Source: Eledone cirrhosa (taxonomy: Eukaryota). From it: a stretch of 64,000 bases of DNA. Under the pieces are notes generated by a model. It saw nothing but the letters and a program-made list of their open reading frames with translations. It searched no databases and was not told where the DNA came from. Positions 1 through 64,000 of the stretch are shown one piece after another. The position numbers and the translations under genes are program-made. The stretch covers positions 70,184,001-70,248,000 of the forward strand of contig OZ024747.1 in the NCBI GenBank assembly GCA_964016885.1. Direction: 5' to 3'. Positions within the stretch are counted from its first letter, which is position 1, and the number at the start of each line of letters is the position of its first letter.

Positions 1-27
1 TATATATATATATATATATATATATAA
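1..27. repeat. (TA)n microsatellite (truncated by window start)
   Basis: Direct reading; further (TA)n tracts at 222-240, 669-682 and 919-934. Confidence 0.97.
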
Positions 28-103
28 CGAAGGAGGTGTGGTAAGGAATCAGATGGACCATAACGCACCAGAGTACTCAATACTTAGGGTAGTAGAGTGG
101 GTA

Positions 104-224
104 ATAGGAAAATGTTGGACCTCGACGGCAGAGCTCAAGGCGTTTCGACGGTTATTTCTGGACTCAGAAATAGCCGTCGAAACGGCTTGAGCTCTGCCGC
201 CGTCGGGGTCAAACTTTTTCCTAT
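104..224. repeat. Long imperfect inverted repeat (fold-back), ~57-60 bp arms with 4-nt loop GACT
   Basis: Left arm ATAGGAAAATGTTGGACCTCGACGGCAGAGCTCAAGGCGTTTCGACGGTTATTTCTG (104-160) is the reverse complement of 165-224 apart from ~5 substitutions and a 3-bp indel. Confidence 0.95.
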
Positions 225-243
225 ATATATATATATATATACT

Positions 244-344
244 GGCCAGTCTGCTGACATGCAAATCTGGCTGATTAGGGGATCTACTAATATGCAGATC
301 TAACTGCTCGGCCAGTCTGCTAATATGCAAATCAGGCCGATCAG
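244..344 (+). promoter_or_regulatory. Three diverged ~33-bp tandem units, each with an octamer(-like) motif
   Basis: ATGCAAAT 259-266, ATGCAGAT 292-299, ATGCAAAT 325-332 (exact 33-bp spacing); units 1 and 3 share GGCCAGTCTGCT. The repeat is seen directly; regulatory function is inferred only. Confidence 0.45.
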
Positions 345-393
345 TCACTGTGTATTTTTGAAAATAGCATATATTTTCACTAGCTCTGACGGT

Positions 394-473
394 TTGGCAG
401 GTGTACAGTGAGCTGTACTGATGAAGGGTGATACGCAGAAACATTAGTGTCTGCAGTTCTGTTCACATGCCAA
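394..473 (+). ncRNA. Type I hammerhead ribozyme motif (Penelope/retrozyme-like), stem II degenerate
   Basis: Core CTGATGA 418-424, GAAA 438-441, short stem III CA-TTAG-TG 442-449, cleavage triplet GTC 449-451. Stem I GAGCTGTA (410-417) pairs with TGCAGTTC (452-459) and extends to TTGGCA (394-399)/TGCCAA (468-473). Confidence 0.72.
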
Positions 474-570
474 CACAAGAGCAAGAATGAAGGGTTCATT
501 CTACTGACATGACTATAAAATTGAGGCTTGTTTACATAATTGTAAACGACTCGAATGTTATTATTAATAT

Positions 571-656
571 ATCCTTACGGGATCGATAAAATAAAGTACC
601 AGTAATGCACTGGGTAATTGCTGGCCTTGTGCCAAAAGTAGAAACAATTATTAATA
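571..656 (+). mobile_element. SINE 3' fragment (short subtype)
   Basis: ATCCTTACGGGATCGATAAAATAAAGTACCAGTAATGCACTGGGTAATTGCTGGCCTTGTGCCAAAAGTAGAAACAATTATT, near-identical to 38222-38300 and 44534-44618. Confidence 0.88.
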
Positions 657-931
657 TTCGAAAAACACATATATATATATATTAAAAACCTTTTTTGATT
701 AAAAACCTTTTTTGTATAGCAAACCGTGCCAATCTTCTTTCCTGATTTATTATTACTCCAAGTGTTTACAACATAGGAATTACAGCATACCCGCAGCATC
801 ACTATGAAAACGCCTTGTTGAGTCAAACTTAGCCAAGCGTTGATATCATCCACTACCCGGAATATCATAACTGGACTACACCTAAGTGGACTGCATATAA
901 CTATTATTTGTTACCCCGTATATATATATAT

Positions 932-1045
932 ATAGGAAAAAGTATGACCCCGACGGCAGAGTTCAAGCCGTTTCGACGGCTATTTCGGCTAGAAATAGCC
1001 GTCGAAAGCAACCAAAATTGCTTTCATTCATCAGAATGAAAAAAT
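932..1045 (-). ncRNA. Hammerhead-like element end with an extra hairpin; same family as the 104-224 arms
   Basis: Minus strand reads CTGATGA (1034-1028), AT, hairpin GAAAGCAA/TTGCTTTC, 12-bp hairpin GACGGCTATTTC/GAAATAGCCGTC, GAAA, stem CGGC/GCCG, TC (GTC at 954-952), then GGGGTCATACTTTTTCC and (TA)n. Stem I pairing is poor. Confidence 0.5.
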
Positions 1046-1104
1046 CCTGGTGTCTTTACTGGCAGTGGATTTGAAAAACAAAAATATAACAGATATGATA
1101 TATA

Positions 1105-1800
1105 AACCTTCCTCTTTCCATCTCCTACCACTCTACTCCTTCTTCTATCCCTCTCACTACCCATTTTCCATAACTCCCCATTTACCTCTTTTATTTTGTC
1201 ACCAGCTTCCAGTTTCTTGACACATCAAGTCCACAGACGCAGCAGTGGCACCACACTCACCACCACCACCACCATAACTCCCCAGGACATTGACTACCGC
1301 AACTGTCGCCGCCGACGCCATCATCTCCGCCACTATGATCTCCATCACCATCACCATCACCAACACCATCATCCTCATCCTCCCCTCTTTAATTTTCCTC
1401 ATATCCCCTCTTTTTCCTCTTTTACCTTTCTCCTTGATGCATTTCTCCCCCCTTTTTTATACATTACTACTGATTCTTCCCCACCTCCCACTACTCCTTC
1501 TTAAATCATAATGTGACGCCATATTAACCTCCTTCTCTATCCGTCTTCCACCTTTACTCCTACTACACCTATCTGCTTGACTCCTACTCTCTATATCTCA
1601 CACACCCGCTTTGCTACCTCACATCTCGTTGTCTATATCTTTGTTTTTCTTTTGTTCTTCCTTTCAGATCTCTACTTCCAAACTATTCAAACCTTAACGC
1701 CGCTGCCGCCGCCGCCGCCATCACCAACACCATCAACACCACCAACACCACCACAATAACTAATATCATCAATTACCATCCACAACCACCACCTATACGA
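1105..1800. repeat. Pyrimidine-rich low-complexity DNA with decayed CAC/CAT/GCC triplet repeats
   Basis: Composition and short triplet runs, e.g. 1258-1275, 1340-1380, 1698-1756. Confidence 0.8.
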
Positions 1801-1810
1801 CTATTGCTAA

Positions 1811-1914
1811 TACTACTACTACTACTACTACCACTACCACTACCACTACCACCACTACTACCACTACCACTACTACTGCCACTGCCACTACCACTATTAC
1901 TGCCACTGCCACTG

Positions 1915-1966
<52 letters not shown>

Positions 1967-2058
1967 CACTACCACTACCACCACTACCACCACTACTACC
2001 ACTACCACTACTACTGCCACTGCCACTACCACTATTACTGCCACTGCCACTGCCACTG

Positions 2059-2122
<64 letters not shown>

Positions 2123-2125
2123 CAC
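1811..2125. repeat. Compound microsatellite (CTA)n/(CCACTA)n/(CCACTG)n with an internal ~138-bp duplication
   Basis: Block starting CCACTACCACCACTACTACCACTACCACTACTACTGCCACTGCC at 1843 recurs at 1981. Confidence 0.95.
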
Positions 2126-2356
2126 TTACTAACATGTACTCAAGTCAAAAAGGGAGCGTCCACGTGGTCGCTTGATAAGGAAGACAGCAGCTTAATGTCT
2201 TTTATATCTCAACCTATTCTATATACTATAGTCTGAAGAGAGGTATGGACATGTTAATGTAGCCTTATTTGGCATTGTCATGGATGGAGGGCGTTTTACC
2301 ATAGGAATAGTCGATGAAGCTTGACGTGGCACTGAATAGCAACTACTATGTATAAC

Positions 2357-2539
2357 ATGCATTTGTGGCATTTAGTTATGTCCCTTTACGTTCTGTGTTC
2401 AAATCCCACCTAGGCTAGTTTTACCTTTTATCCTTACGGGGTCGATAAAATAAAGTACCAGTAATGCACTGGTTCGATTTAATTTGCTCGGCTTCCTCTT
2501 CAAATGTTTGACCTTGCACCAAAAGTAGAAGCAATTATG
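2357..2539 (+). mobile_element. tRNA-derived SINE, 5'-truncated (long subtype)
   Basis: B-box-like GTTCAAATC (~2397), core TCCTTACGGGGTCGATAAAATAAAGTACCAGT, tail CCTTGCACCAAAAGTAGAAGCAATTAT. Confidence 0.85.
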
Positions 2540-2749
2540 TATAACATTCGCAACCATCTAAAACAGTGCCTTACAAATGGGCTCGTACCGCTCCCTGCTC
2601 ACCTTTAGGGTTTATGAGGGGCTGTGAGGAAAATCACACTACAGAGGAGGCGGGACTTTAAAGATTTGGTTGGGCGGAGAGAACAAATTTATATCAGTGA
2701 AGTACAGATACAAAGAACACCAAACTACGCTGCTAACTTCAATTATATT

Positions 2750-2978
2750 TTAACCATTTAGCATTTAAACCGGCCGTAGCCGGCCAGAATGTTCTCGCCT
2801 CTTCCTGTTCAAACCGGCTGTAACCTGCTGCTCATACTTAGGTTAAGGTATTGTTCTGATAATAAATAATTTCAAAATCTTATGGATTCGATATTTTGTG
2901 AGATAATTATGTAAGATAAAGTCTTTACCGTAAAAATACAATAGTATAACTAGAGTAATATAAATGCTAAAGGGTTAA
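2750..2978. mobile_element. piggyBac-type non-autonomous element (MITE), ~221 bp between TTAA sites
   Basis: TTAA|CCATTTAGCATTTA ... TAAATGCTAAAGGG|TTAA: 14-bp terminal inverted repeats with one mismatch, TTAA at 2750-2753 and 2975-2978. TTAA target duplication with CCY termini is the piggyBac signature. Confidence 0.85.
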
Positions 2979-2990
2979 AATATTTGGGTT

Positions 2991-5900
2991 TCAAATGTGT
3001 TATGTGCTCAAATGTGTTTTATGCTCAAATGTGTTATATGCTCAAATGTGTTATATGCTCAAATGTGTTTTATGCTCAAATGTGTTTTATGCTCAAATGT
3101 GTTTTATGCTCAAATGTGTTATATGCTCAAACGTGTTTTATGCTCAAATGTGTTTTATGCTCAAATGTGTCATATGCTCAAATGTGTTTTATGCTCAAAT
3201 GTGTTTTATGCTCAAATGTGTCATATGCTCAAATGTGTTATATGCTCAAATGTGTTATATGCTCAAATGTGTTTTATGCTCAAATGTGTTTTATGCTCAA
3301 ATGTGTTATATGCTCAAATGTGTCATATGCTCAAATGTGTCATATGCTCAAATATGTTGTATGCTCAAATGTGTTATATGCTCAAATGTGTTTTATGCTC
3401 AAATGTGTTTTATGCTCAAATGTGTTATATGCTCAAATGTGTTGTATGCTCAAATGTGTTTTATGCTCAAATGTGTTATATGCTCAAATGTGTTATATGC
3501 TCAAATGTGTTTTATGCTCAAATGTGTTTTATGCTCAAATGTGTTATATGCTCAAATGTGTTTTATGCTCAAATGTGTTATATGCTCAAATGTGTTTTAT
3601 GCTCAAATGTGTTTTATGCTCAAATGTGTTTTATGCTCAAATGTGTTATATGCTCAAACGTGTTTTATGCTCAAATGTGTTTTATGCTCAAATGTGTCAT
3701 ATGCTCAAATGTGTTTTATGCTCAAATGTGTTTTATGCTCAAATGTGTCATATGCTCAAATGTGTTATATGCTCAAATGTGTTATATGCTCAAATGTGTT
3801 TTATGCTCAAATGTGTTTTATGCTCAAATGTGTTATATGCTCAAATGTGTCATGTGCTCAAATGTGTCATATGCTCAAATAAGTTGTATGCTCAAATGTG
3901 TTATATGCTCAAATGTGTTTTATGCTCAAATGTGTTTTATGCTCAAATGTGTTATATGCTCAAATGTGTTGTATGCTCAAATGTGTTTTATGCTCAAATG
4001 TGTTATATGCTCAAATGTGTTATATGCTCAAATGTGTTTTATGCTCAAATGTGTTTTATGCTCAAATGTGTTATATGCTCAAATGTGTTTTATGCTCAAA
4101 TGTGTTATATGCTCAAATGTGTTTTATGCTCAAATGTGTTTTATGCTCAAATGTGTTATATGCTCAAATGTGTTTTATGCTCAATTGTGTTATATGCTCA
4201 AATGTGTTTTATGCTCAAATGTGTTATATGCTCAAATGTGTTATATGCTCAAATGTGTTTTATGCTCAAATGTGTTTTATGCTCAAATGTGTTATATGTT
4301 CAAATGTGTTTTATGCTCAAATGTGTTATATGCTCAAATGTTTTTATGCTCAAATGTGTTATATGCTAAAATGTGTTATATGCTCAAATGTGTTTTATGC
4401 TCAAATGTGTTTTATGCTCAAATGTGTTATATGCTCAAAAGTGTTATATGCTCAAATGTGTTATATGCTCAAATGTGTTTTATGCTCAAATGTGTTTTAT
4501 GCTCAAATGTGTTATATGCTAAAATGTGTTTTATGCTCAAATGTGTCATCTGCTCAAATGTGTTTTATGCTCAAATGTGTTTTATGCTCAAATGTGTTAT
4601 ATGCTCAAATGTGTTTTATGCTTAAATGTGTTTTATGCTCAAATGTGTTTTATGCTCAAATGTGTTATATGCTCAAATGTGTTATATGCTTAAATGTGTT
4701 TTATGCTCAAATGTGTTTTATGCTCAAATGTGTTATATGCTCAAATGTGTTTTATGCTCAAATGTGTTTTATCCTCAAATGTGTTTTATGCTCAAATGTG
4801 TTTTATGTTCAAATGTGTTATATGCTCAAATGTGTTATATGCTCAAATGTGTTTTATGTTCAAATGTGTTTTATGCTCAAATGTATCTTATGCTCAAATG
4901 TGTTATATGCTCAAATGTGTTATATGCTCAAATGTGTTTTATGCTCAAATGTGTTTTATGCTCAAATGTGTTTTATGCTCAAATGTGTTATATGCTCAAA
5001 CGTGTTTTATGCTCAAATGTGTTTTATGCTCAAATGTGTCATATGCTCAAATGTGTTTTATGCTCAAATGTGTTTTATGCTCAAATGTGTTATATGCTCA
5101 AATGTGTTTTATGCTCAAATGTGTCATATGCTCAAATGTGTTTTATGCTCAAATGTGTTATATGCTCAAATGTGTTATATGCTCAAATGTGTTTTATGCT
5201 CAAATGTGTTTTATGCTCAAATGTGTTATATGCTCAAATGTGTCATATGCTCAAATGTGTTTTATGCTCAAATGTGTTTTATGCTCAAATGTGTTTTATG
5301 CTCAAATGTGTTTTATGCTCAAATGTGTTATATGCTCAAATGTGTTATATGCTCAAATGTGTTATATGCTCAAATGTGTTATATGCTCAAATGCGTTTTA
5401 TGCTCAAATGTGTTTTATGCTCAAATGTGTTATATGCTCAAATGTGTTATATGCTCAAATGTGTTTTATGCTCAAATGTGTTTTATGCTCAAATGTGTTA
5501 TATGCTCAAATGTGTTTTATGCTCAAATGTGTTATATGCTCAAATGTGTTTTATGCTCAAATGTGTTATATGCTAAAATGTGTTTTATGCTCAAATGTGT
5601 TATCTGCTCAAATGTGTTTTATGCTCAAATGTGTTTTATGCTCAAATGTGTTATATGCTCAAATGTGTTTTATGCTTAAATGTGTTTTATGCTCAAATGT
5701 GTTTTATGCTCAAATGTGTTATATGCTCAAATGTGTTATATGCTTAAATGTGTTTTATGCTCAAATGTGTTTTATGCTCAAATGTGTTTTATGCTCAAAT
5801 GTGTTATATGCTCAAATGTGTTTTATGCTCAAATGTGTTTTATCCTCAAATGTGTTTTATGCTCAAATGTGTTTTATGTTCAAATGTGTTATATGCTCAA

Positions 5901-44439: not shown

Positions 44440-44698
44440 CATCGGTAGATGTTCGGACGCCATGCTTTGCAGCATAGAGCTACGACCCTTTGAAGTCTGA
44501 GTTCAAATCATGCCGAGGCTCACTTTGCCTATGATCCTTACGGGGTCGATAAAATAAAGTACCAGTAATGTACTGGGATCATTGCTGGCCTTGTGCCAAA
44601 AGTAGAAACAATTATTACTACGGGGTCGATAAAATAAAGTACCAGTAATGTACTGTGATCATTGCTGGCCTTGTGACACAGGTAGAAACAATTATTAC
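44440..44698 (+). mobile_element. SINE (short subtype) with an 80-bp tandem duplication of its 3' end
   Basis: 44539-44618 and 44619-44698 are near-identical (TACGGGGTCGATAAAAT...GAAACAATTATTAC); B-box GAGTTCAAATC at ~44499. Confidence 0.9.
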
Positions 44699-44700
44699 TA

Positions 44701-47700
44701 ACAGCACTATCAACATTATTAACATCACTACCACTATCAGCACTATCAACATTATTAACATCACTACCACTATCAGCACTATCAACATTATTAACATCAC
44801 TACCACTATCAGCACTATCAACATTATTAACATCACTACCACTATCAACACTATCAACATTATTAACATCACTACCACTATCAGCACTATCAACATTATT
44901 AACATCACTACCACTATCAACACTATCAACATTATTAACATCACTACCACTATCAACATTATTAACATTATTAACATCACTACCACTATCAACACTATCA
45001 ACATTATTAACATCACTACCACTATCAGCACTATCAGCACTATCAACATTATTAACATCACTACCACTATCACCACTATCAGCACTATCAACACTATCAA
45101 CATTATTAACATCACTACCACTATCAGCACTATCAGCACTATCAACTTTATTAACATCACTACCACTATCACCACTATCACCACTATCAGCACTATCAAC
45201 ATTATTAACATCACTACCACTATCAACACTATCAACATTATTAACATCACTGCCACTATCACCACTATCAGCACTATCAACATTATTAACATCACTACCA
45301 CTATCAACACTATCAACATTATTAACATCACTACCACTATCAGCACTATCAGCACTATCAACATTATTAACATCACTACCACTATCACCACTATCAGCAC
45401 TATCAACATTATTAACATCACTACCACTATCAACACTATCAACATTATTAACATCACTACCACTATCAGCACAATCAGCACTATCAACATTATTAACATC
45501 ACTACCACTATCACCACTATCAGCACTATCAACACTATCAACATTATTAACATCACTACCACTATCAGCACTATCAGCACTATCAACATTATTAACATCA
45601 CTACCACTATCACCACTATCAGCACTATCAACATTATTAACATCACTACCACTATCAACACTATCAACATTATTAACATCACTACCACTATCAGCACTAT
45701 CAGCACTATCAACATTATTAACATCACTACCACTATCAACACTATCAACATTATTAACATCACTGCCACTATCACCACTATCAGCACTATCAACATTATT
45801 AACATCACTACCACTATCAGCACTATCAGCATTATCAACATTATTAACATCACTACCACTATCAGCACTATCAACATTATTAACATCACTACCACTATCA
45901 GCACTATCAACATTATTAACATCACTACCACTATCAGCACTATCAACATTATTAACATCACTACCACAATCAGCACTATCAACATTATTAACATCACTAC
46001 CACTATCAACACTATCAACATTATTAACATCACTACCACTATCACCACTATCAACACTATCAACATTATTAACATCACTACCACTATCAACACTGTCAAC
46101 ATTATTAACATCACTACCACTATCAACACTATCAACATTATTAACATCACTACCACTATCACCACTATCAACACTATCAACATTATTAACATCACTACCA
46201 CTATCAGCACTATCAACATTATTAACATCACTACCACTATCAACACTATCAACATTATTAACATCACTACCACTATCAGCACTATCAACATTATTAACAT
46301 CACTACCACTATCAACACTATCAACATTATTAACATCACTACCACTATCAGCACTATCAACATTATTAACATCACTACCACTATCAACACTATCAACATT
46401 ATTAACATCACTACCACTATCAGCACTATCAGCACTATCAACATTATTAACATCACTACCACTATCACCACTATCAGCACTATCAGCACTATCAACATTA
46501 TTAACATCACTACCACTATCACCACTATCAGCACTATCAACATTATTAACATCACTACCACTATCACCACTATCAGCACTATCAACATTATTAACATCAC
46601 TACCACTATCACCACTATCAGCACTATCAACATTATTAACATCACTACCACCATCACCACTATCAGCACTATCAACATTATTAACATCACTACCACTATC
46701 ACCAATATCAGCACTATCTACATTATTAACATCACTACCACTATCAACACTATCAACATTATTAACATCACTACCACTATCAGCACTATCAGCACTATCA
46801 ACATTATTAACATCACTACCAGTATCAGCACTATCAGCACTATCAACATTATTAACATCACTACCACTATCAGCACTATCAACATTATTAACATCACTAC
46901 CACTATCAGCACTATCAACATTATTAACATCACTACCACTATCAGTACTATCAACATTATTAACACCACTACCACTATCAGCACTATCAACATTATTAAC
47001 ATCACTACCACTATCAGCACTATCAACATTATTAACATCACTACCACTATCAACACTATCAAGATTATTAACATCACTAGCACTATCAGCACTATCAGCA
47101 CTATCAACATTATTAACATCACTACCACTATCACCACTATCAACACTATCAACATTATTAACATCACTACCACTATCAACACTATCAACATTATTAACAT
47201 CACTACCACTATCAGCACTATCAGCACTATCAACATTATTAACATCACTACCACTATCACCACTATCAACACTATCAACATTATTAACATCACTACCACT
47301 ATCAACACTATCAACATTATTAACATCACTACCACTATCAACACTATCAACATTATTAACATCACTACCACTATCACCACTATCAACACTATCAACATTA
47401 TTAACATCACTACCACTATCAACACTATCAACATTATTAACATCACTACCACTATCAACACTATCAACATTATTAACATCACTACCACTATCAGCACTAT
47501 CAGCACTATCAACATTATTAACATCACTACCACTATCCCCACTATCAACACTATCAACATTATTAACATCACTACCACTATCAACACTATCAACATTATT
47601 AACATCACTACCACTATAAACACTATCAACATTATTAACATCACTACCACTATCACCACTATCAACACTATCAACATTATTAACATCAATACCACTATCA

Positions 47701-50700
47701 GCACTATCAACATTATTAACATCACTACCACTATCAGCATTATCAGCACTATCAACATTATTAACATCACTACCACTATCAGCACTATCAGCACTATCAA
47801 CATTATTAACATCACTACCACTATCAACACTATCAACATTATTAACATCACTACCACTATCACCACTATCAGCACTATCAACATTATTAACATCACTACC
47901 ACTATCACCACTATCAACATTATTAACATCACTACCACTATCAACACATCAACACCACTATCAACACTATCAACACTATCAACATTATTAACATCACTAC
48001 CACTATCAACACTATCAACACTATCAACATTATTAACATCACTACCACTATCTCCACTATCAACACTATCAACATTATTAACATCACTACCACTATCACC
48101 ACTATCAACACTATCAACATTATTAACATCACTACCACTATCAACACTATCAACATTATTAACATCACTACCACTATCAGCACTATCAACATTATTAACA
48201 TCACTACCACTATCAACATTATTAACATTATTAACATCACTACCACTATCACCACTATCAACACTATCAACATTATTAACATCACTACCACTATCACCAC
48301 TATCAACACTATCAACATTATTAACATCACTACCACTATCAGCACTATCAACATTATTAACATCACTACCACTATCACCACTATCAACACTATCAACATT
48401 ATTAACATCACTACCACTATCAGCACTATCAACATTATTAACATCACTACCACTATCAGCACTATCAGCACTATCAACATTATTAACATCACTACCACTA
48501 TCAACACTATCAACATTATTAACATCACTACCACTATCACCACTATCACCACTATCAACATTATTAACACCACTACCACTATCACCAATATCACCACTAT
48601 CAGCACTATCAACATTATTAACATCACTACCACTATCACCACTATCAGCACTATCAACATTATTAACATCACTACCACTATCACCACTATCAACACTATC
48701 AACATTATTAACATCACTACCACTATCACCACTATCAACACTATCAACATTATTAACACCACTACCACTATCACCACTATCACCACTATCAACATTATTA
48801 ACATCACTACCACTATCACCATTATCAACTCTATCAACATTATTAACATCAATACCACTATCAGCACTATCAACATTATTAACATCACTACCACTATCAG
48901 CACTATCAGCACTATCAACATTATTAACATCACTACCACTATCAACACTATCAACATTATTAACATCACTACCACTATCACCACTATCAGCACTATCAAC
49001 ATTATTAACATCACTACCACTATCAGCACTATCAACATTATTAACATCACTACCACTATCAGCACTATCAGCACTATCAACATTATTAACATCACTACCA
49101 CTATCAACACTATCAACATTATTAACATCACTACCACTATCACCAATATCAGCACTATCAACATTATTAACATCACTACCACTATCAGCACTATCAACAT
49201 TATTAACATCACTACCACTATCAGCACTATCAGCACTATCAACATTATTAACATCACTACCACTATCAGCACTATCAACATTATTAACATCACTACCACT
49301 ATCAGCACTATCAACATTATTAACACCACTACCACTATCACCAGTATCAGCACTATCAACATTATTAACACCACTACCACTATCACCACTATCACCACTA
49401 TCACCACTATCAACATTATTAACATCACGACCACTATCACCACTATCAGCACTATCAACATTATTAACATCACTACCACTATCACCACTATCAACACTAT
49501 CAACATTATTAACATCACTACCACTATCAGCACTATCAACATTATTAACATCACTACCACTATCAGCACTATCAACATTATTAACATCACTACCACTATT
49601 AACACTATCAACATTATTAACATCACTACCACTATCAGCACTATCAATATTATTAACATCACTACCACTATCAACACTATCAACATTATTAACATCACTA
49701 CCACTATCAGCACTATCAACATTATTAACATCACTACCACTATCACCACTATCAGCACTATCAACATTATTAACATCACTACCACTATCACCACTATCAG
49801 CACTATCAACATTATTAACATCACTACCACTATCAGCACTATCAACATTATTAACATCACTACCACTATCACCACTATCAACACTATCAACATTATTAAC
49901 ATCACTACCACTATCAACACTATCAACACTATCAACATTATTAACATCACTACCACTATCAACACTATCAACATTATTAACATCACTACCACTATCACCA
50001 CTATCAACACTATCAACATTATTAACATCACTACCACTATCAACACTATCAACATTATTAACATCACTACCACTATCAGCACTATCATCATTATTAACAT
50101 CACTACCACTATCAACATTATTAACATTATTAACATCACTACCACTATCACCACTATCAACACTATCAACATTATTAACATCACTACCACTATCAGCACT
50201 ATCAACACTATCAACATTATTAACATCACTACCACTATCACCACTATCAACACTATCAACATTATTAACATCACTACCACTATCACCACTATCAACACTA
50301 TCAACATTATTAACATCACTACCACTATCAGCACTATCAACATTATTAACATCACTACCACTATCAGCACTATCAGCACTATCAACATTATTAACATCAC
50401 TAGCACTATCAACACTATCAACATTATTAACATCACTACCACTATCACCACTATCACCACTATCAACATTATTAACACCACTACCACTATCACCACTATC
50501 ACCACTATCAGCACTATCAACATTATTAACATCACTACCACTATCACCACTATCAGCACTATCAACATTATTAACACCACTACCACTATCACCACTATCA
50601 CCACTATCAGCACTATCAACATTATTAACATCACTACCACTATCACCACTATCAGCACTATCAACATTATTAACATCACTACCACTATCACCACTATCAG

Positions 50701-53700
50701 CACTATCAACATTATTAACATCACTACCACTATCACCACTATCAACACTATCAACATTATTAACATCACTACCACTATCACCACTATCAACACTATCAAC
50801 ATTATTAACACCACTACCACTATCACCACTATCACCACTATCAACATTATTAACATCACTACCACTATCACCACTATCAACACTATCAACATTATTAACA
50901 TCACTACCACTATCACCACTATCAGCACTATCAACATTATTAACATCACTACCACTATCAACACTATCAACATTATTAACATCACTACCACTATCACCAC
51001 TATCACCACTATCAACATTATTAACATCACTACCACTATCACCACTATCAACATTATTAACATCACTACCACTATCACCACTATCAGCACTATCAACATT
51101 ATTAACATCACTACCACTATCACCATTATCACCACTATCAACATTATTAACACCACTACCACTATCACCACTATCAACACTATCAACATTATTAACATCA
51201 CTACCACTATCACCACTATCAACACTATCAACATTATTAACATCACTACCACTATCAACACTATCAACATTATTAACATCACTACCACTATCACCACTAT
51301 CAACACTATCAACATTATTAACACCACTACCACTATCACCACTATCAACACTATCAACATTATTAACACCACTACCACTATCACCACTATCACCACTATC
51401 AACATTATTAACATCACTACCACTATCAACACATCAACACCACTATCAACACTATCAACACTATCAACATTATTAACACCACTACCACTATCACCACTAT
51501 CACCACTATCAACATTATTAACATCACTACCACTATCACCACTATCAACACTATCAACATTATTAACACCACTACCACTATCACCACTATCAACACTATC
51601 AACATTATTAACATCACTACCACTATCACCACTATCACCACTATCAACATTATTAACATCACTACCACTATCACCACTATCAACACTATCAACATTATTA
51701 ACACCACTACCACTATCACCACTATCAACACTATCAACATTATTAACATCACTACCACTATCACCACTATCAACACTATCAACATTATTAACACCACTAC
51801 CACTATCACCACTATCACCACTATCAACACATCAACACCACTATCAACACTATCAACACTATCAACATTATTAACATCACTACCACTATCACCACTATCA
51901 ACACTATCAACATTATTAACACCACTACCACTATCACCACTATCAACACTATCAACATTATTAACACCACTACCACTATCACCACTATCACCACTATCAA
52001 CATTATTAACATCACTACCACTATCAACACATCAACACCACTATCAACACTATCAACACTATCAACATTATTAACACCACTACCACTATCACCACTATCA
52101 CCACTATCAACATTATTAACACCACTACCACTATCACCACTATCAACACTATCAACATTATTAACACCACTACCACTATCACCACTATCAACACTATCAA
52201 CATTATTAACACCACTACCACTATCACCACTATCACCACTATCAACATTATTAACATCACTACCACTATCAACACATCAACACCACTATCAACACTATCA
52301 ACACTATCAACATTATTAACACCACTACCACTATCACCACTATCACCACTATCAACATTATTAACATCACTACCACTATCACCACTATCAACACTATCAA
52401 CATTATTAACACCACTACCACTATCACCACTATCAACACTATCAACATTATTAACATCACTACCACTATCACCACTATCACCACTATCAACATTATTAAC
52501 ATCACTACCACTATCACCACTATCAACACTATCAACATTATTAACACCACTACCACTATCACCACTATCAACACTATCAACATTATTAACATCACTACCA
52601 CTATCACCACTATCAACACTATCAACATTATTAACACCACTACCACTATCACCACTATCACCACTATCAACACATCAACACCACTATCAACACTATCAAC
52701 ACTATCAACATTATTAACATCACTACCACTATCAACACTATCAACACTATCAACATTATTAACATCACTACCACTATCAACACTATCAACATAATTAACA
52801 TCACTACCACTATCACCACTATCAACACTATCAACATTATTAACATCACTACCACTATCAACACTATCAACATTATTAACATCACTACCACTATCAGCAC
52901 TATCAACATTATTAACATCACTACCACTATCAACATTATTAACATTATTAACATCACTACTACTATCACCACTATCAACACTATCAACATTATTAACATC
53001 ACTACCACTATCACCACTATCAACACTATCAACATTATTAACATCACTACCACTATCAGCACTATCAACACTATCAACATTATTAACATCACTACCACTA
53101 TCACCACTATCAGCACTATCAACATTATTAACATCACTACCACTATCAACACTATCAACATTATTAACATCACTACCACTATCAGCACTATCAACACTAT
53201 CAACATTATTAACATCACTACCACTATCACCACTATCAGCACTATCAACATTATTAACATCACTACCACTATCAACACTATAGACATTATTAACATCACT
53301 ACCACTATCAGCACTATCAGCACTATCAACATTATTAACATCACTACCACTATCAACACTATCAACATTATTAACATCACTACCACTATCACCACTATCA
53401 GCACTATCAACATTATTAACATCACTACCACTATCAGCACTATCAACATTATTAACATCACTACCACTATCAGCACTATCAGCACTATCAACATTATTAA
53501 CATCACTACCACTATCAACACTATCAACATTATTAACATCACTACCACTATCACCACTATCAGCACTATCAACATTATTAACATCACTACCACTATCAGC
53601 ACTATCAACATTATTAACATCACTACCACTATCAGCACTATCAGCACTATCAACATTATTAACATCACTACCACTATTAACACTATCAACATTATTAACA

Positions 53701-56700
53701 TCACTACCACTATCACCACTATCAGCACTATCAACATTATTAACATCACTACCACTATCAGCACTATCAACATTATTAACATCACTACCACTATCACCAC
53801 TATCACCACTATCACCACTATCAACATTATTAACACCACTACCACTATCACCACTATCAGCACTATCAACATTATTAACACCACTACCACTATCACCACT
53901 ATCACCACTATCACCACTATCAACATTATTAACATCACTACCACTATCACCACTATCAGCACTATCAACATTATTAACACCACTACCACTATCACCACTA
54001 TCACCACTATCACCACTATCAACATTATTAACATCACGACCACTATCACCACTATCAGCACTATCAACATTATTAACATCACTACCACTATCACCACTAT
54101 CAACACTATCAACATTATTAACATCACTACCACTATCAGCACTATCAACATTATTAACATCACTACCACTATCAGCACTATCAACATTATTAACATCACT
54201 ACCACTATCAACACTATCAACATTATTAACATCACTACCACTATCAGCACTATCAATATTATTAACATCACTACCACTATCAACACTATCAACATTATTA
54301 ACATCACTACCACTATCAGCACTATCAACATTATTAACATCACTACCACTATCACCACTATCAGCACTATCAACATTATTAACATCACTACCACTATCAG
54401 CACTATCATCATTATTAACATCACTACCACTATCAACATTATTAACATTATTAACATCACTACCACTATCAACACTATCAACATTATTAACATCACTACC
54501 ACTATCAGCACTATCCACACTATCAACATTATTAACATCACTACCACTATCACCACTATCAACACTATCAACATTATTAACATCACTACCACTATCACCA
54601 CTATCAACACTATCAACATTATTAACATCACTACCACTATCAGCACTATCAACATTATTAACATCACTACCACTATCAGCACTATCAGCACTATCAACAT
54701 TATTAACATCACTACCACTATCAACACTATCAACATTATTAACATCACTACCACTATCACCACTATCACCACTATCAACATTATTAACACCACTACCACT
54801 ATCACCACTATCACCACTATCAGCACTATCAACATTATTAACATCACTACCACTATCAGCACTATCAGCACTATCAACATTATTAACATCACTACCACTA
54901 TCAACACTATCAACATTATTAACATCACTACCACTATCACCACTATCAGCACTATCAACATTATTAACACCACTACCACTATCACCACTATCACCACTAT
55001 CAGCACTATCAACATTATTAACATCACTACCACTATCACCACTATCAGCACTATCAACATTATTAACATCACTACCACTATCACCACTATCAGCACTATC
55101 AACATTATTAACATCACTACCACTATCACCACTATCAACACTATCAACATTATTAACATCACTACCACTATCACCACTATCAACACTATCAACATTATTA
55201 ACACCACTACCACTATCACCACTATCACCACTATCAACATTATTATCATCACTACCACTATCACCACTATCAACACTATCAACATTATTAACATCACTAC
55301 CACTATCACCACTATCAACATTATTAACATCACTACCACTATCACCACTATCAGCACTATCAACATTATTAAAATCACTACCACTATCAGCACTATCAGC
55401 ACTATCAACATTATTAACATCACTACCACTATCAACACTATCAACATTATTAACATCACTACCACTATCACCACTATCACCACTATCAACATTATTAACA
55501 TCACTACCACTATCACCACTATCAACATTATTAACATCACTACCACTATCACCACTATCAGCACTATCAACATTATTAACATCACTACCACTATCAACAT
55601 TATTAACATTATTAACATCACTACCACTATCAACATTATTAACATTATTAACATCACTACTACTATCACCACTATCAACACTATCAACATTATTAACATC
55701 ACTACCACTATCACCACTATCAGCACTATCAACATTATTAACATCACTACCACTATCACCATTATCACCACTATCAACATTATTAACACCACTACCACTA
55801 TCACCACTATCAACACTATCAACATTATTAACATCACTACCACTATCACCACTATCAACACTATCAACATTATTAACATCACTACCACTATCAACACTAT
55901 CAACATTATTAACATCACTACCACTATCAACACTATCAACATTATTAACATCACTACCACTATCACCACTATCAACATTATTAACATCACTACCACTATC
56001 AACACTATCAACATTATTAACATCACTACCACTATCAACACTATCAACATTATTAACATCACTATCAACACTATCAACATTATTAACATCACTACCACTA
56101 TCAACACTATCAACATTATTAACACCACTACCACTATCACCACTATCAACACTATCAACATTATTAACACCACTACCACTATCACCACTATCACCACTAT
56201 CAACATTATTAACATCACTACCACTATCAACACATCAACACCACTATCAACACTATCAACACTATCAACATTATTAACACCACTACCACTATCACCACTA
56301 TCACCACTATCAACATTATTAACACCACCACCACTATCACCACTATCAACACTATCAACATTATTAACATCACTACCACTATCACCACTATCAACACTAT
56401 CAACATTATTAACACCACTACCACTATCACCACTATCACCACTATCAACATTATTAACACCACTACCACTATCACCACTATCAACACTATCAACATTATT
56501 AACATCACTACCACTATCACCACTATCAACACTATCAACATTATTAACACCACTACCACTATCACCACTATCACCACTATCAACATTATTAACATCACTA
56601 CCACTATCAACACATCAACACCACTATCAACACTATCAACACTATCAACATTATTAACATCACTACCACTATCAACACTATCAACACTATCAACATTATT

Positions 56701-59700
56701 AACATCACTACCACTATCAACACTATCAACATAATTAACATCACTACCACTATCACCACTATCAACACTATCAACATTATTAACATCACTACCACTATCA
56801 ACACTATCAACATTATTAACATCACTACCACTATCAGCACTATCAACATTATTAACATCACTACCACTATCAACATTATTAACATTATTAACATCACTAC
56901 TACAATCACCACTATCAACACTATCAACATTATTAACATCACTACCACTATCACCACTATCAACACTATCAACATTATTAACATCACTACCACTATCAGC
57001 ACTATCAACACTATCAACATTATTAACATCACTACCACTATCACCACTATCAGCACTATCAACATTATTAACATCACTACCACTATCAACACTATCAACA
57101 TTATTAACATCACTACCACTATCAGCACTATCAGCACTATCAACATTATTAACATCACTACCACTATCAACACTATCAACATTATTAACATCACTACCAC
57201 TATCAGCACTATCAGCACTATCAACATTATTAACATCACTACCACTATCAACACTATCAACATTATTAACATCACTACCACTATCAGCACTATCAGCACT
57301 ATCAACATTATTAACATCACTACCACTATCAACACTATCAACATTATTAACATCACTACCACTATCAGCACTATCAACACTATCAACATTATTAACATCA
57401 CTACCACTATCACCACTATCAGCACTATCAACATTATTAACATCACTACCACTATCAACACTATCAACATTATTAACATCACTACCACTATCAGCACTAT
57501 CAGCACTATCAACATTATTAACATCACTACCACTATCAACACTATAAACATTATTAACATCACTACCACTATCACCACTATCAGCACTATCAACATTATT
57601 AACATCACTACCACTATCAGCACTATCAGCACTATCAACATTATTAACATCACTACCACTATCAACACTATCAACATTATTAACATCACTACCACTATCA
57701 CCACTATCAGCACTATCAACATTATTAACATCACTACCACTATCAGCACTATCAACATTATTAACATCACTACCACTATCAGCACTATCAGCACTATCAA
57801 CATTATTAACATCACTACCACTATCAACACTATCAACATTATTTACATCACTACCACTATCACCACTATCAGCACTATCAACATTATTAACATCACTACC
57901 ACTATCAGCACTATCAACATTATTAACACCACTACCACTATCACCACTATCAGCACTATCAACATTATTAACACCACTACCACTATCACCACTATCACCA
58001 CTATCACCACTATCAACATTATTAACATCACGACCACTATCACCACTATCAGCACTATCAACATTATTAACATCACTACCACTATCACCACTATCAACAC
58101 TATCAACATTATTAACATCACTACCACTATCACCACTATCAACACTATCAACATTATTAACATCACTACCACTATCAACACTATCAACATTATTAACATC
58201 ACTACCACTATCACCACTATCAACACTATCAACATTATTAACACCACTACCACTATCACCATTATCACCACTATCAACATTATTAACATCACTACCACTA
58301 TCAACACATCAACACCACTATCAACACTATCAACACTATCAACATTATTAACATCACTACCACTATCAACACTATCAACACTATCAACATTATTAACATC
58401 ACTACCACTATCAACACTATCAACATAATTAACATCACTACCACTATCACCACTATCAACACTATCAACATTATTAACATCACTACCACTATCAACACTA
58501 TCAACATTATTAACATCACTACCACTATCAGCACTATCAACATTATTAACATCACTACCACTATCAACATTATTAACATTATTAACATCACTACTACTAT
58601 CACCACTATCAACACTATCAACATTATTAACATCACTACCACTATCACCACTATCAACACTATCAACATTATTAACATCACTACCACTATCAGCACTATC
58701 AACACTATCAACATTATTAACATCACTACCACTATCACCACTATCAGCACTATCAACATTATTAACATCACTACCACTATCAACACTATCAACATTATTA
58801 ACATCACTACCACTATCAGCACTATCAACACTATCAACATTATTAACATCACTACCACTATCACCACTATCAGCACTATCAACATTATTAACATCACTAC
58901 CACTATCAACACTATCAACATTATTAACATCACTACCACTATCAGCACTATCAGCACTATCAACATTATTAACATCACTACCACTATCAACACTATCAAC
59001 ATTATTAACATCACTACCACTATCACCACTATCAGCACTATCAACATTATTAACATCACTACCACTATCAGCACTATCAACATTATTAACATCACTACCA
59101 CTATCAGCACTATCAGCACTATCAACATTATTAACATCACTACCACTATCAACACTATCAACATTATTAACATCACTACCACTATCACCACTATCAGCAC
59201 TATCAACATTATTAACATCACTACCACTATCAGCACTATCAACATTATTAACATCACTACCACTATCAGCACTATCAGCACTATCAACATTATTAACATC
59301 ACTACCACTATCAACACTATCAACATTATTTACATCACTACCACTATCACCACTATCAGCACTATCAACATTATTAACATCACTACCACTATCAGCACTA
59401 TCAACATTATTAACACCACTACCACTATCACCACTATCAGCACTATCAACATTATTAACACCACTACCACTATCACCACTATCAACATTATTAACATCAC
59501 GACCACTATCACCACTATCAGCACTATCAACATTATTAACATCACTACCACTATCACCACTATCAACACTATCAACATTATTAACATCACTACCACTATC
59601 AGCACTATCAACATTATTAACATCACTACCACTATCAGCACTATCGACATTATTAACATCACTACCACTATCAACACTATCAACATTATTAACATCACTA

Positions 59701-62700
59701 ACACTATCAGCACTATCAATATTATTAACATCACTACCACTATCAACACTATCAACATTATTAACATCACTACCACTATCAGCACTATCAACATTATTAA
59801 CATCACTACCACTATCACCACTATCAGCACTATCAACATTATTAACATCACTACCACTATCACCACTATCAGCACTATCAACATTATTAACATCACTACC
59901 ACTATCACCACTATCAACATTATTAACATCACTACCACTATCAACACATCAACACCACTATCAACACTATCAACACTATCAACATTATTAACATCACTAC
60001 CACTATCAACACTATCAACACTATCAACATTATTAACATCACTACCACTATCAACACTATCAACATTATTAACATCACTACCACTATCACCACTATCAAC
60101 ACTATCAACATTATTAACATCACTACCACTATCAACACTATCAACATTATTAACATCACTACCACTATCAGCACTATCATCATTATTAACATCACTACCA
60201 CTATCAACATTGTTAACATTATTAACATCACTACCACTATCACCACTATCAACACTATCAACATTATTAACATCACTACCACTATCAGCACTATCAACAC
60301 TATCAACATTATTAACATCACTACCACTATCACCACTATGAACACTATCAACATTATTAACATCACTACCACTATCACCACTATCAACACTATCAACATT
60401 ATTAACATCACTACCACTATCAGCACTATCAACATTATTAACATCACTACCACTATCAGCACTATCAGCACTATCAACATTATTAACATCACTACCACTA
60501 TCAACACTATCAACATTATTAACATCACTACCACTATCACCACTATCACCACTATCAACATTATTAACACCACTACCACTATCACCACTATCACCACTAT
60601 CAGCACTATCAACATTATTAACATCACTACCACTATCACCACTATCAGCACTATCAACATTATTAACATCACTACCACTATCACCACTATCAACACTATC
60701 AACATTATTAACATCACTACCACTATCAACACTATCAACATTATTAACATCACTACCACTATCAACACTATCAACATTATTAACATCACTACCACTATCA
60801 CCACTATCAACATTATTAACATCACTACCACTATCACCACTATCAACATTATTAACATCACTACCACTATCAACACGTCAACACCACTATCAACACTATC
60901 AACACTATCAACATTATTAACACCACTACCACTATCACCACTATCACCACTATCAACATTATTAACACCACTACCACTATCACCACTATCAACACTATCA
61001 ACATTATTAACACCACTACCACTATCACCACTATCAACACTATCAACATTATTAACATCACTACCACTATCACCACTATCAACACTATCAACATTATTAA
61101 CACCACTACCACTATCACCATTATCACCACTATCAACATTATTAACATCACTACCACTATCAACACATCAACACCACTATCAACACTATCAACACTATCA
61201 ACATTATTAACATCACTACCACTATCAACACTATCAACACTATCAACATTATTAACATCACTACCACTATCAACACTATCAACATAATTAACATCACTAC
61301 CACTATCAGCACTATCAACATTTTTAACATCACTACCACTATCAGCACTATCAACATTATTAACATCACTACCACTATCAGCACTATCAACATTTTTAAC
61401 ATCACTACCACTATCAACATTATTAACATTATTAACATCACTACTACTATCAGCACTATCAACACTATCAACATTATTAACATCACTACCACTATCACCA
61501 CTATCAACACTATCAACATTATTAACATCACTACCACTATCAGCACTATCAACACTATCAACATTATTAACATCACTACCACTATCACCACTATCAGCAC
61601 TATCAACATTATTAACATCACTACCACTATCAACATTATCAACATTATTAACATCACTACCACTATCAGCACTATCAACACTATCAACATTATTAACATC
61701 ACTACCACTATCAACACTATCAACATTATTAACATCACTACCACTATCACCACTATCAGCACTATCAACATTATTAACATCACTACCACTATCAGCACTA
61801 TCAACATTATTAACATCACTACCACTATCACCACTATCAGCACTATCAACATTATTAACATCACTACCACTATCAACACTATCAACATTATTAACGTCAC
61901 TACCACTATCAACACTATCAGCACTATCAACATTATTAACATCACTACCACTATCACCACTATCAACACTATCAACATTATTAACACCACTACCACTATC
62001 ACCATTATCAACATTATTAACATCACTACCACTATCTCCACTATCAGCACTATCAACATTATTAACATCACTACCACTATCAGCACTATCAGCACTATCA
62101 ACATTATTAACATCACTACCACTATCAGCACTATCAGCACTATCAACATTATTAACATCACTACCACTATCAGCACTATCAACATTATTAACATCACTAC
62201 CACTATCTCCACTATCAGCACTATCAATATTATTAACATCACTACCACTATCAGCACTATCAGCACTATCAACATTATTAACATCACTTCCACTATCAAC
62301 ACTATCAGCACTATCAACATTATTAACATCACTAACACTATCACCACTATCAACACTATCAATATTATTAACATCACTACCACTATCAGCACTATCAACA
62401 TTATTAACATCACTACCAATATCAGCACTATCAACACTATCAACATTATTAACATCACTACCACTATCACCACTATCAACACTATCAACATTATTAACAT
62501 CACTACCACTATCACCACTATCAACACTATCAACATTATTAACATCACTACCACTATCAGCACTATCAACATTATTAACATCACTACCACTATCAGCACT
62601 ATCAGCACTATCAACATTATTAACATCACTACCACTATCAACACTATCAACATTATTAACATCACTACCACTATCACCACTATCACCACTATCAACATTA

Positions 62701-64000
62701 TTAACACCACTACCACTATCACCACTATCACCACTATCAGCACTATCAACATTATTAACATCACTACCACTATCACCACTATCAGCACTATCAACATTAT
62801 TAACACCACTACCACTATCACCACTATCACCACTATCAGCACTATCAACATTATTAACATCACTACCACTATCACCACTATCAGCACTATCAACATTATT
62901 AACATCACTACCACTATCACCACTATCAACACTATCAACATTATTAACATCACTACCACTATCACCACTATCAACACTATCAACATTATTAACACCACTA
63001 CCACTATCACCACTATCACCACTATCAACATTATTAACATCACTACCACTATCACCACTATCAACACTATCAACATTATTAACATCACTACCACTATCAC
63101 CACTATCAACATTATTAACATCACTACCACTATCACCACTATCAGCACTATCAACATTATTAACATCACTACCACTATCAGCACTATCAGCACTATCAAC
63201 ATTATTAACATCACTACCACTATCACCACTATCAACATTATTAACATCACTACCACTATCACCACTATCAGCACTATCAACATTATTAACATCACTACCA
63301 CTATCAGCACTATCAGCACTATCAACATTATTAACATCACTACCACTATCAACACTATCAACATTATTAACATCACTACCACTATCACCACTATCAGCAC
63401 TATCAACATTATTAACATCACTACCACTATCAGCACTATCAGCACTATCAACATTATTAACATCACTACCACTATCAACACTATCAACATTATTAACATC
63501 ACTACCACTATCACCACTATCAACACTATCAACATTATTAACATCACTACCACTATCACCACTATCAACACTATCAACATTATTAACATCACTACCACTA
63601 TCAGCACTATCAACACTATCAACATTATTAACATCACTACCACTATCACCACTATCAGCACTATCAACATTATTAACATCACTACCACTATCAACATTAT
63701 CAACATTATTAACATCACTACCACTATCAGCACTATCAACACTATCAACATTATTAACATCACTACCACTATCACCACTATCAGCACTATCAACATTATT
63801 AACATCACTACCACTATCAACACTATCAACACTATCAACATTATTAACACCACTACCACTATCACCATTATCAACATTATTAACATCACTACCACTATCT
63901 CCACTATCAGCACTATCAACATTATTAACATCACTACCACTATCAGCACTATCAGCACTATCAACATTATTAACATCACTACCACTATCAGCACTATCAG
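44701..64000. repeat. Large minisatellite array (>19.3 kb, runs off window) of 9-bp blocks: ATCACTACC-(ACTATCAVC)n-ATTATTAAC, mostly 36/45/54 bp
   Basis: Direct reading, e.g. ATCACTACC ACTATCAGC ACTATCAAC ATTATTAAC. Confidence 0.99.

What the first reader, a model, noticed from the sequence alone, without database searches (positions are those of the whole stretch)
1..1045. Mosaic of (TA)n-bounded mini-elements, each carrying a hammerhead or hammerhead-like motif
Seen: four (TA)n tracts (1-27, 222-240, 669-682, 919-934) divide the first kilobase into modules. Each module contains hammerhead core pieces with plausible stems (104-224, 394-473, 793-894, 932-1045). Established: Penelope-like retroelements and non-autonomous retrozymes carry type I hammerheads, and some retroelements prefer microsatellite targets. 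Inference: one TA microsatellite was hit repeatedly by several families of small, non-coding, ribozyme-bearing retroelements. This may be an undescribed TA-targeting retrozyme/PLE system.
Basis: partly seen in the sequence, partly recalled or inferred. Interest (0 to 1): 0.75.

Follow-up and report, generated by a model that had tools for sequence, protein, structure and literature searches.

The report
Penelope jumping-gene stubs in TA repeats
This kilobase is a pile-up of cut-off ends from three known-type Penelope-like jumping genes and one small non-coding ribozyme repeat, all sitting in TA repeats; none keeps an intact predicted ribozyme here, and the commonest stub stops at one fixed point that likely marks where the element's RNA begins.

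Summary
The mosaic is real, but the system is already described and 'a hammerhead in each module' is too strong. Window 1-1098 holds pieces of four high-copy families in (TA)n, plus a SINE fragment. Families A (28-221, 935-1007), C (698-918) and D (1004-1098) are 3' ends of Penelope-like elements whose ORFs carry the Hydra-clade motifs; Hydra is a published TA-targeting, hammerhead-bearing clade (Craig 2021) with an Octopus member. Family B (242-668) is a 437-nt non-coding retrozyme-like unit with Penelope-type ends. All four families have a predicted type I hammerhead (A: U3-A8 core; C: U4C core), yet no window copy is intact: A half, B stem II hit, C absent, D half. Best extra result: family A copies stop at a wall inside stem II (76 of 88 tailed arms end at or before it; 10,375 vs 1,100 exact hits either side), likely the transcription start, so the palindromes would be run-off cDNAs made from both cut strands. 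No covariation and no RNA evidence. This scan reported the same system, and the same wall idea, on other DNA before.

The parts
1..27 (.). (TA)n tract, continues about 40 nt upstream of the window
28..164 (-). Family A (Hydra-type PLE) tail-bearing arm: begins at the wall (A of TTAGTC at 164), 3' half of hammerhead (stem II 3' strand, GAAA, stem III, GUC, stem I 3' strand), pLTR end, 76-nt tail that is the 5' UTR of the next unit
   Evidence: 93% to long copy L191
165..221 (+). Family A inverted arm without tail, ending at the pLTR end; makes the 104-224 palindrome
222..241 (.). (TA)n tract
242..570 (+). Family B, part of a 437-nt non-coding circularly permuted unit (retrozyme-like)
410..459 (+). 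Family B type I hammerhead layout: core 418-424, GAAA 438-441, predicted cut after C451; G435 breaks stem II in this copy
571..647 (+). 5'-truncated SINE-like repeat inserted into family B, flanked by a 10-nt duplication (561-570 and 648-657)
648..668 (+). Family B 3' end (first of its two preferred ends, decayed)
669..682 (.). (AT)7 tract
681..918 (+). Family C (Hydra-type PLE) 3' end and tail; starts 9 nt downstream of the family's predicted cut site, with a 17-nt duplication at 681-714; no ribozyme in this copy
   Evidence: 94% to full-length L231
919..934 (.). (TA)n tract
935..1007 (.). Second family A palindrome; the tail-side arm is cut off after GAAA at 1004-1007
1004..1098 (-). Family D (Hydra-type PLE) 3' fragment with CUGAUGA (1034-1028) and stem II; GAAA, stem III and the end were lost at the junction with family A
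   Evidence: 98% to L092

Best explanation
The region is a nest of 5'-truncated ends of three Penelope-like retroelement families with Hydra-clade protein motifs plus one non-coding hammerhead repeat, likely inserted one after another into TA microsatellite by Hydra endonuclease/reverse transcriptase. Shown: families A, C and D continue upstream into ORFs with the Hydra motifs; each has two fixed 3' ends (pLTR end and tail end) abutting (TA)n and often an inverted arm; family B has the same two-end, inverted-arm footprint but no ORF. Inferred: the enzyme nicks both strands of (TA)n and primes two cDNAs at the two internal start sites just upstream of the ORF start, as shown in vitro for another PLE. 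In family A the RNA likely starts at the initiator-like TTAGTC/TCAGTC inside the ribozyme's stem II loop, so both cDNAs run off after about 58 and 134 nt and are joined head to head, giving the short palindromes that lack the 5' core strand. Family B is likely copied in trans from a circular or multimeric RNA. A later deletion between two GAAA motifs likely fused the second A copy to D.
For: ORF links: C, six fetched copies with 790-812 aa open frames, L231 flanked by two pLTRs matching window 696-934; A, ORF remnants contiguous with the ribozyme in L186, L190, L191; D, ORF end in L418/L110, L439, L443, L424 upstream of the shared 3' UTR. Motifs RWK or RWR, DKT, CxCX5C, CxxC, CxH are the Hydra diagnostics (PMC8557442 section 11). 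Ribozymes: in A only N7 varies freely (C18, A13, T1, G1 of 33; other core sites 31-33 of 33); in C N7 is T48/A43 of 91; an A copy folds into the three-way junction, z -2.7. Wall: 10,375 exact hits just 3' of it against 1,100 spanning it; 76 of 88 position-ordered tailed arms end at offset 48 or less, 31 at 45-48, only 3 reach the 5' core; arms stop there even when joined to unrelated DNA; both arms share the subfamily signature in 25 of 33 palindromes against 5.8 expected. The A tail leads straight into the ORF start in 3 tandem copies. PMC11167929 (parts 1-2 read): both strands cut and extended, two internal start sites, product length set by the template's 5' end. B: 1,051 exact copies, ends at unit positions 141-147 in 12 and 171-182 in 7 of 26, inverted arm in 12 of 26, up to 1.78 units.
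Against: No covariation in the A ribozyme: 0 of 19 pairs change on both sides. No Pfam or PDB match for the ORFs, and no tree was built, so the clade call rests on motifs. A has RWR, not RWK; D's N-terminus was not seen. Family C shows no wall (5' extents 9 to 1,500 nt in 30 arms), so the run-off reading is not general. The start-site reading rests on a recalled initiator consensus and has no RNA support. No peak of 5' ends at the predicted cut site (2 of 88 and 0 of 68 arms), so nothing here shows that the ribozymes cut in vivo. No intact family A ORF was found (not searched by protein). B shares no detectable sequence with 12 Hydra loci, so its partner enzyme is inferred from the footprint only.
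Confidence: 0.8

Rival explanations
1. The family A wall is a structural stop for reverse transcriptase inside the folded ribozyme (the inner hairpin of stem II), not the RNA's start.
For: The wall lies 2-3 nt into a predicted 7-bp hairpin; many ends also fall at offsets 36-44 (28 of 88).
Against: That hairpin is AU-rich, while stronger helices (stems I, III and the 9-bp stem II) are crossed without a wall; short repeats of the wall-proximal bases at junctions (L111; L125, L145; L377) look like re-copying of a free 5' end.
Confidence: 0.25
2. The palindromic A stub is itself a master non-autonomous element (MITE-like or retro-copied hairpin) that spreads as a unit.
For: The 30 best matches share nearly the same palindrome.
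Against: That set was selected by the query. In less biased samples the junction varies, the same junctions recur in several subfamilies and the two arms match each other's subfamily; the tail lies on one side only and long ORF-bearing parents exist.
Confidence: 0.07
3. The palindromes arise after insertion, by collapse of long inverted duplications at stem II.
For: Long inverted pairs exist (L160, L186, L191) and inverted repeats are unstable (general knowledge).
Against: Solo arms without any mirror partner start at the same base (L241, L246, L312, L331, L342, L353, L359); family C has equally common inverted pairs and no wall.
Confidence: 0.05
4. One reading: an undescribed system of small non-coding ribozyme elements.
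For: Family B is non-coding and retrozyme-like; Rfam does not see these ribozymes.
Against: A, C and D have coding parents of a published TA-targeting clade.
Confidence: 0.05

Closest known systems
Hydra clade of C-terminal EN+ Penelope-like elements, including Hydra-1_Obim (Craig et al. 2021, PMC8557442; abstract, passages, sections 6, 10, 11, File S1 rows, File S2 table, ORF excerpts read)
   Same: RWK/DKT/CxCX5C/CxxC/CxH motifs, (TA)n insertion, hammerhead in the pLTR often closed by a mismatch at the base of stem II, tail at one end, inverted 5'-truncated arm.
   Different: These are other families: their ribozymes differ from the listed Hydra-1_oBim one (compared by eye); A has a U3-A8 core and C a U4C core with long stem II, where all Hydra motifs listed in File S2 start CUGA; tails are 76 nt (A) and about 165 nt (C) against the 30-40 nt described; elements are longer than the <3 kb given.
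Animal non-LTR retrozymes (Cervera and de la Pena 2020, PMC7229834, passages read; Li et al. 10.64898/2026.07.22.740005, part 1 of 5 read)
   Same: Family B: non-coding tandem-capable unit with one type I hammerhead, low GC, dimers with two cores.
   Different: 437 nt is at the top of the size range; copies are mostly 0.4-1.8 units with two fixed ends and inverted arms in (TA)n; 'microsatellite' and 'target site' do not occur in PMC7229834's main text.
Poseidon PAc of Anolis (Frangieh et al. 2024, PMC11167929; parts 1-2 of 4 read)
   Same: Two internal start sites near the ORF start that define pLTR end and tail; both strands extended; AT-rich target.
   Different: Other clade; no genomic run-off wall is described in the parts read; its ribozyme overlaps the ORF start.
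PLE hammerhead variants (Cervera and de la Pena 2014, PMC4209133, parts 1-2 of 4; Perreault et al. 2011, PMC3088659, passages)
   Same: U3-A8 core known from Schistosoma PLEs and active in vitro; U4C known as a weak natural variant.
   Different: A has a 5-bp stem III with a palindromic loop and a two-tier stem II; C carries U4C as its family norm (88 of 91).

Membership tests
Hydra-clade PLE (A, C, D) | Single ORF with RT then C-terminal GIY-YIG endonuclease | tested here: met
   C: 790-812 aa frames with YRDD then YIG; A and D from broken or partial copies. By motif; Pfam gave no hit
Hydra-clade PLE (A, C, D) | RWK motif and DKT in place of DKG | tested here: met
   C: RWK, DKT. A: RWR, DKT. 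D: N-terminus not recovered
Hydra-clade PLE (A, C, D) | CxCX5C linker; CxxC and CxH around the catalytic E and N | tested here: met
   all three families
Hydra-clade PLE (A, C, D) | Insertion into (TA)n | tested here: met
   D's pLTR end 11 of 26 (9 more run into the tail), D's tail end 1 of 11
Hydra-clade PLE (A, C, D) | Canonical hammerhead in the pLTR | tested here: inconclusive
   D canonical core; A and C variant cores; layout and N7 freedom fit, covariation absent, activity untested
Hydra-clade PLE (A, C, D) | Phylogenetic placement with published Hydra RTs | not tested
   reference ORFs were seen only in a paper supplement and were not available to the tools
Neptune-clade PLE | DKG motif and CX2-5CxxC linker with CCHH | tested here: not met
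   DKT and CxCX5C found instead
Naiad PLE | N-terminal endonuclease, DKA, no canonical hammerhead | tested here: not met
   endonuclease is C-terminal
Non-LTR retrozyme (B) | Non-coding unit of about 150-450 nt with a type I hammerhead | tested here: met
   437 nt, longest sense ORF 33 aa; motif
Non-LTR retrozyme (B) | Head-to-tail copies with at least two complete ribozymes | tested here: met
   3 same-strand pairs 437-444 nt apart among the first 100 listed hits; at least 5 of 26 arms span two cores; no long arrays seen
Non-LTR retrozyme (B) | Self-cleavage and circular RNA in vivo | not testable with these tools
   needs RNA data or an assay

The most novel reading that the evidence does not exclude
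Family A's thousands of palindromic stubs are strong-stop DNAs: the RNA starts inside the upstream ribozyme, which disables that copy, the downstream ribozyme cuts off the RNA's 3' end, and the 41 nt between start and cut site act as a terminal repeat across which the Penelope enzyme must jump, retrovirus-style, to copy the gene. Most attempts fail and leave stubs; this would explain pseudo-LTRs and give the hammerhead a job.
Probability: 0.15. Interest if true: 0.7.

Novelty: new member of a known kind. Interest (0 to 1): 0.32.

Why it matters
As annotation it is ordinary: more Hydra-type Penelope families and one retrozyme. Two points have value for specialists. How Penelope elements make pseudo-LTRs and what their hammerheads do is open (PMC8557442, PMC11167929); a family in which about nine tenths of copies stop at one base gives a precise, cheap test of where the RNA starts and how the enzyme gets past it. 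And a retrozyme with the Hydra insertion footprint, in a genome with intact Hydra ORFs, names a candidate enzyme for retrozyme mobilisation.

Tried and rejected
Rfam: no hammerhead in the window or in four loci with intact family copies. Pfam and PDB sequence search: no match. My first guess of Neptune was dropped after reading the Hydra diagnostics. DNA-transposon MITE reading of 104-224 rejected (one-sided tail, coding parents). The wall as ribozyme cut site, as 3' splice site, as HDV-like or rearranged hammerhead was considered by eye and rejected: pairing does not fit and no constant upstream exon is seen. An initiator-linked wall in family C was tested and not found (the repeated value 383 there is a BLAST break, not a wall). 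A peak of family A ends at the predicted cut site was tested and not found (two duplicate loci dropped from 90). Family D flanks fetched gave no parent; it was found through. A script timed out before families C and D and was redone. Searches for a printed strong-stop model of Penelope elements listed nothing relevant; bioRxiv supplements and subscription papers were not visible.

Full report
Setting. The window lies in a 3.0-Gb animal genome (G000:C7:70184001-70248000). Its SINE-like repeat resembles octopus repeats as I recall them; this was not tested. Beyond the first 3 kb the window is mostly satellite.

Observation. The four TA tracts are present. Each module is a dispersed repeat. Rfam has no hammerhead hit in the window and misses intact family copies too, so that blank says little. 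A descriptor for canonical type I cores found 0 hits in the window but many in related loci, among them families B and D and several other families. In the window, only 410-459 has the whole layout, and G435 breaks its stem II: the family copy folds at z -2.8, the window copy at z -0.5. 793-894 has no core.

Family A (28-221, 935-1007). The 30 best matches are palindromes with a 76-nt tail on one side and (TA)n on both. Longer copies (1,100 exact hits of a 33-letter probe) show the missing half: a U3-A8 core (UUGANAA), G-C closed two-tier stem II, GAAA, 5-bp stem III, GUC and a CCCC/GGGG stem I. One copy folds into this junction as its minimum-energy form. Across 33 copies only N7 varies freely. 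There is no covariation (0 of 19 pairs), and most aligned copies were picked by an exact probe over stem II. The U3-A8 core is known from Schistosoma PLEs (PMC4209133) and is active in vitro (PMC3088659). Upstream lie a 3' UTR and ORF remnants; downstream, in 3 tandem copies, the tail runs into the ORF start.

Family C (698-918). Six fetched copies have open frames of 790-812 aa; L231 has pLTR and tail on both sides, 94% like the window; 1,227 exact hits of a 28-letter probe. Its ribozyme has U4C in 88 of 91, N7 T48/A43, and a cut site GUC (83) or GUA (7); it does not fold better than shuffles (z 0.05), so it is the least secure of the four. The window copy starts 9 nt past the cut site.

Family D (1004-1098, minus). 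Other copies carry a canonical core with an 11-bp stem II. Four loci link its microsatellite-rich 3' UTR to an ORF end. In the window it is fused to the second A palindrome at a shared GAAA, most simply by a deletion.

Clade. RWK or RWR, DKT, CxCX5C, CxxC and CxH are the diagnostics that PMC8557442 gives for Hydra, whose families nearly all insert into (TA)n and bear hammerheads; File S1 lists Hydra-1_Obim with (TA)n preference and File S2 shows the same mismatch-closed stem II style. Pfam and PDB gave nothing and no tree was made.

Family B (242-668). A 437-nt unit without ORF; 1,051 exact copies of the ribozyme probe. In 26 position-ordered loci (30 less 4 repeats) arms are 0.40-1.78 units long, start anywhere, and end at unit positions 141-147 (12) or 171-182 (7); 12 have an inverted arm. 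That is a retrozyme by layout (PMC7229834; bioRxiv 2026) with the two-end, inverted-arm footprint of PLEs. A SINE fragment with a 10-nt duplication interrupts the window copy.

TA targeting. Ends followed by (TA)3 within 4 nt: A tail 81 of 99, C tail 35 of 41, A pLTR end 63 of 144 (61 others run into the tail), C pLTR end 31 of 62, B first end 18 of 40, B second end 6 of 12, D pLTR end 11 of 26, D tail 1 of 11; controls 14 of 72, 5 of 55 and 343 of 22,445. These loci were picked by similarity; in 90 position-ordered A copies the tail met (TA)3 in 70.

The wall. A probe just 3' of TTAGTC has 10,375 exact hits, one spanning it 1,100. In 30 position-ordered arms, 24 end within 7 nt 5' of the probe. 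In 88 tailed arms, 76 end at offset 48 or less, 31 at 45-48 (the A is 47, the G 46), and 3 reach the 5' core; of 68 inverted arms 56 end at 48 or less, and the values 51-54 are mirror-junction artefacts. The window's own arm starts at the A (164). Arms of one palindrome share the subfamily signature in 25 of 33 against 5.8 expected, and the two mirror-image junction types occur 6 and 6 times. PMC11167929 shows that a PLE protein extends both strands from two internal sites near the ORF start and that shortening the template's 5' end shortens the product; PLE transcription starts within the pLTR. So I infer run-off at the transcription start; TTAGTC/TCAGTC matches the initiator consensus as I recall it. 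Against generality: family C has no wall. Against in-vivo cutting being recorded: only 2 of 156 arms start at the cut site.

Earlier notes of this scan. The same TA/hammerhead/Hydra/retrozyme system was reported on many other pieces of this genome, and e1-9939475 reached the same start-site reading for such a palindrome (my note predates seeing it). They are not independent evidence. Its minority at the cut site was not reproduced in my sample.

Verdict. Real, well explained, known kind; modest interest from the wall and from family B's footprint.

Noticed in passing
window 2991-35084: 17-bp satellite, about 1,889 copies at 95% match.
   Followed up: no
window 44697-64000: AC-rich satellite with nested 36/45/81-bp periods.
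   Followed up: no
window 2745-2983: Short element with 23-nt inverted ends bounded by TTAA, piggyBac-like MITE by recall.
   Followed up: no
window 561-657; L404, L408, L413, L416: The SINE-like repeat interrupts family B at nearly the same TTA-rich site in at least four other loci.
   Followed up: partly
L001, about 460 nt upstream of the window start: Another hammerhead-like motif of a further family with a palindromic stem III.
   Followed up: no
loci L014-L113: At least five more type I hammerhead families turn up in the TA-rich flanks.
   Followed up: no
L243, L289, L420: A diverged family A subfamily keeps the U3-A8 core with T or G at N7 and has TCAGTC or TTAGTC at the wall.
   Followed up: partly
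L179 minus strand 753-5281 (oriented copy): Long Helitron-like Rep/helicase frames next to a family C copy, named by recall of the motifs.
   Followed up: no
L418, L424, L439, L443: Family D carries TA/TG microsatellites inside its own 3' UTR, so it may seed new targets as it spreads.
   Followed up: no
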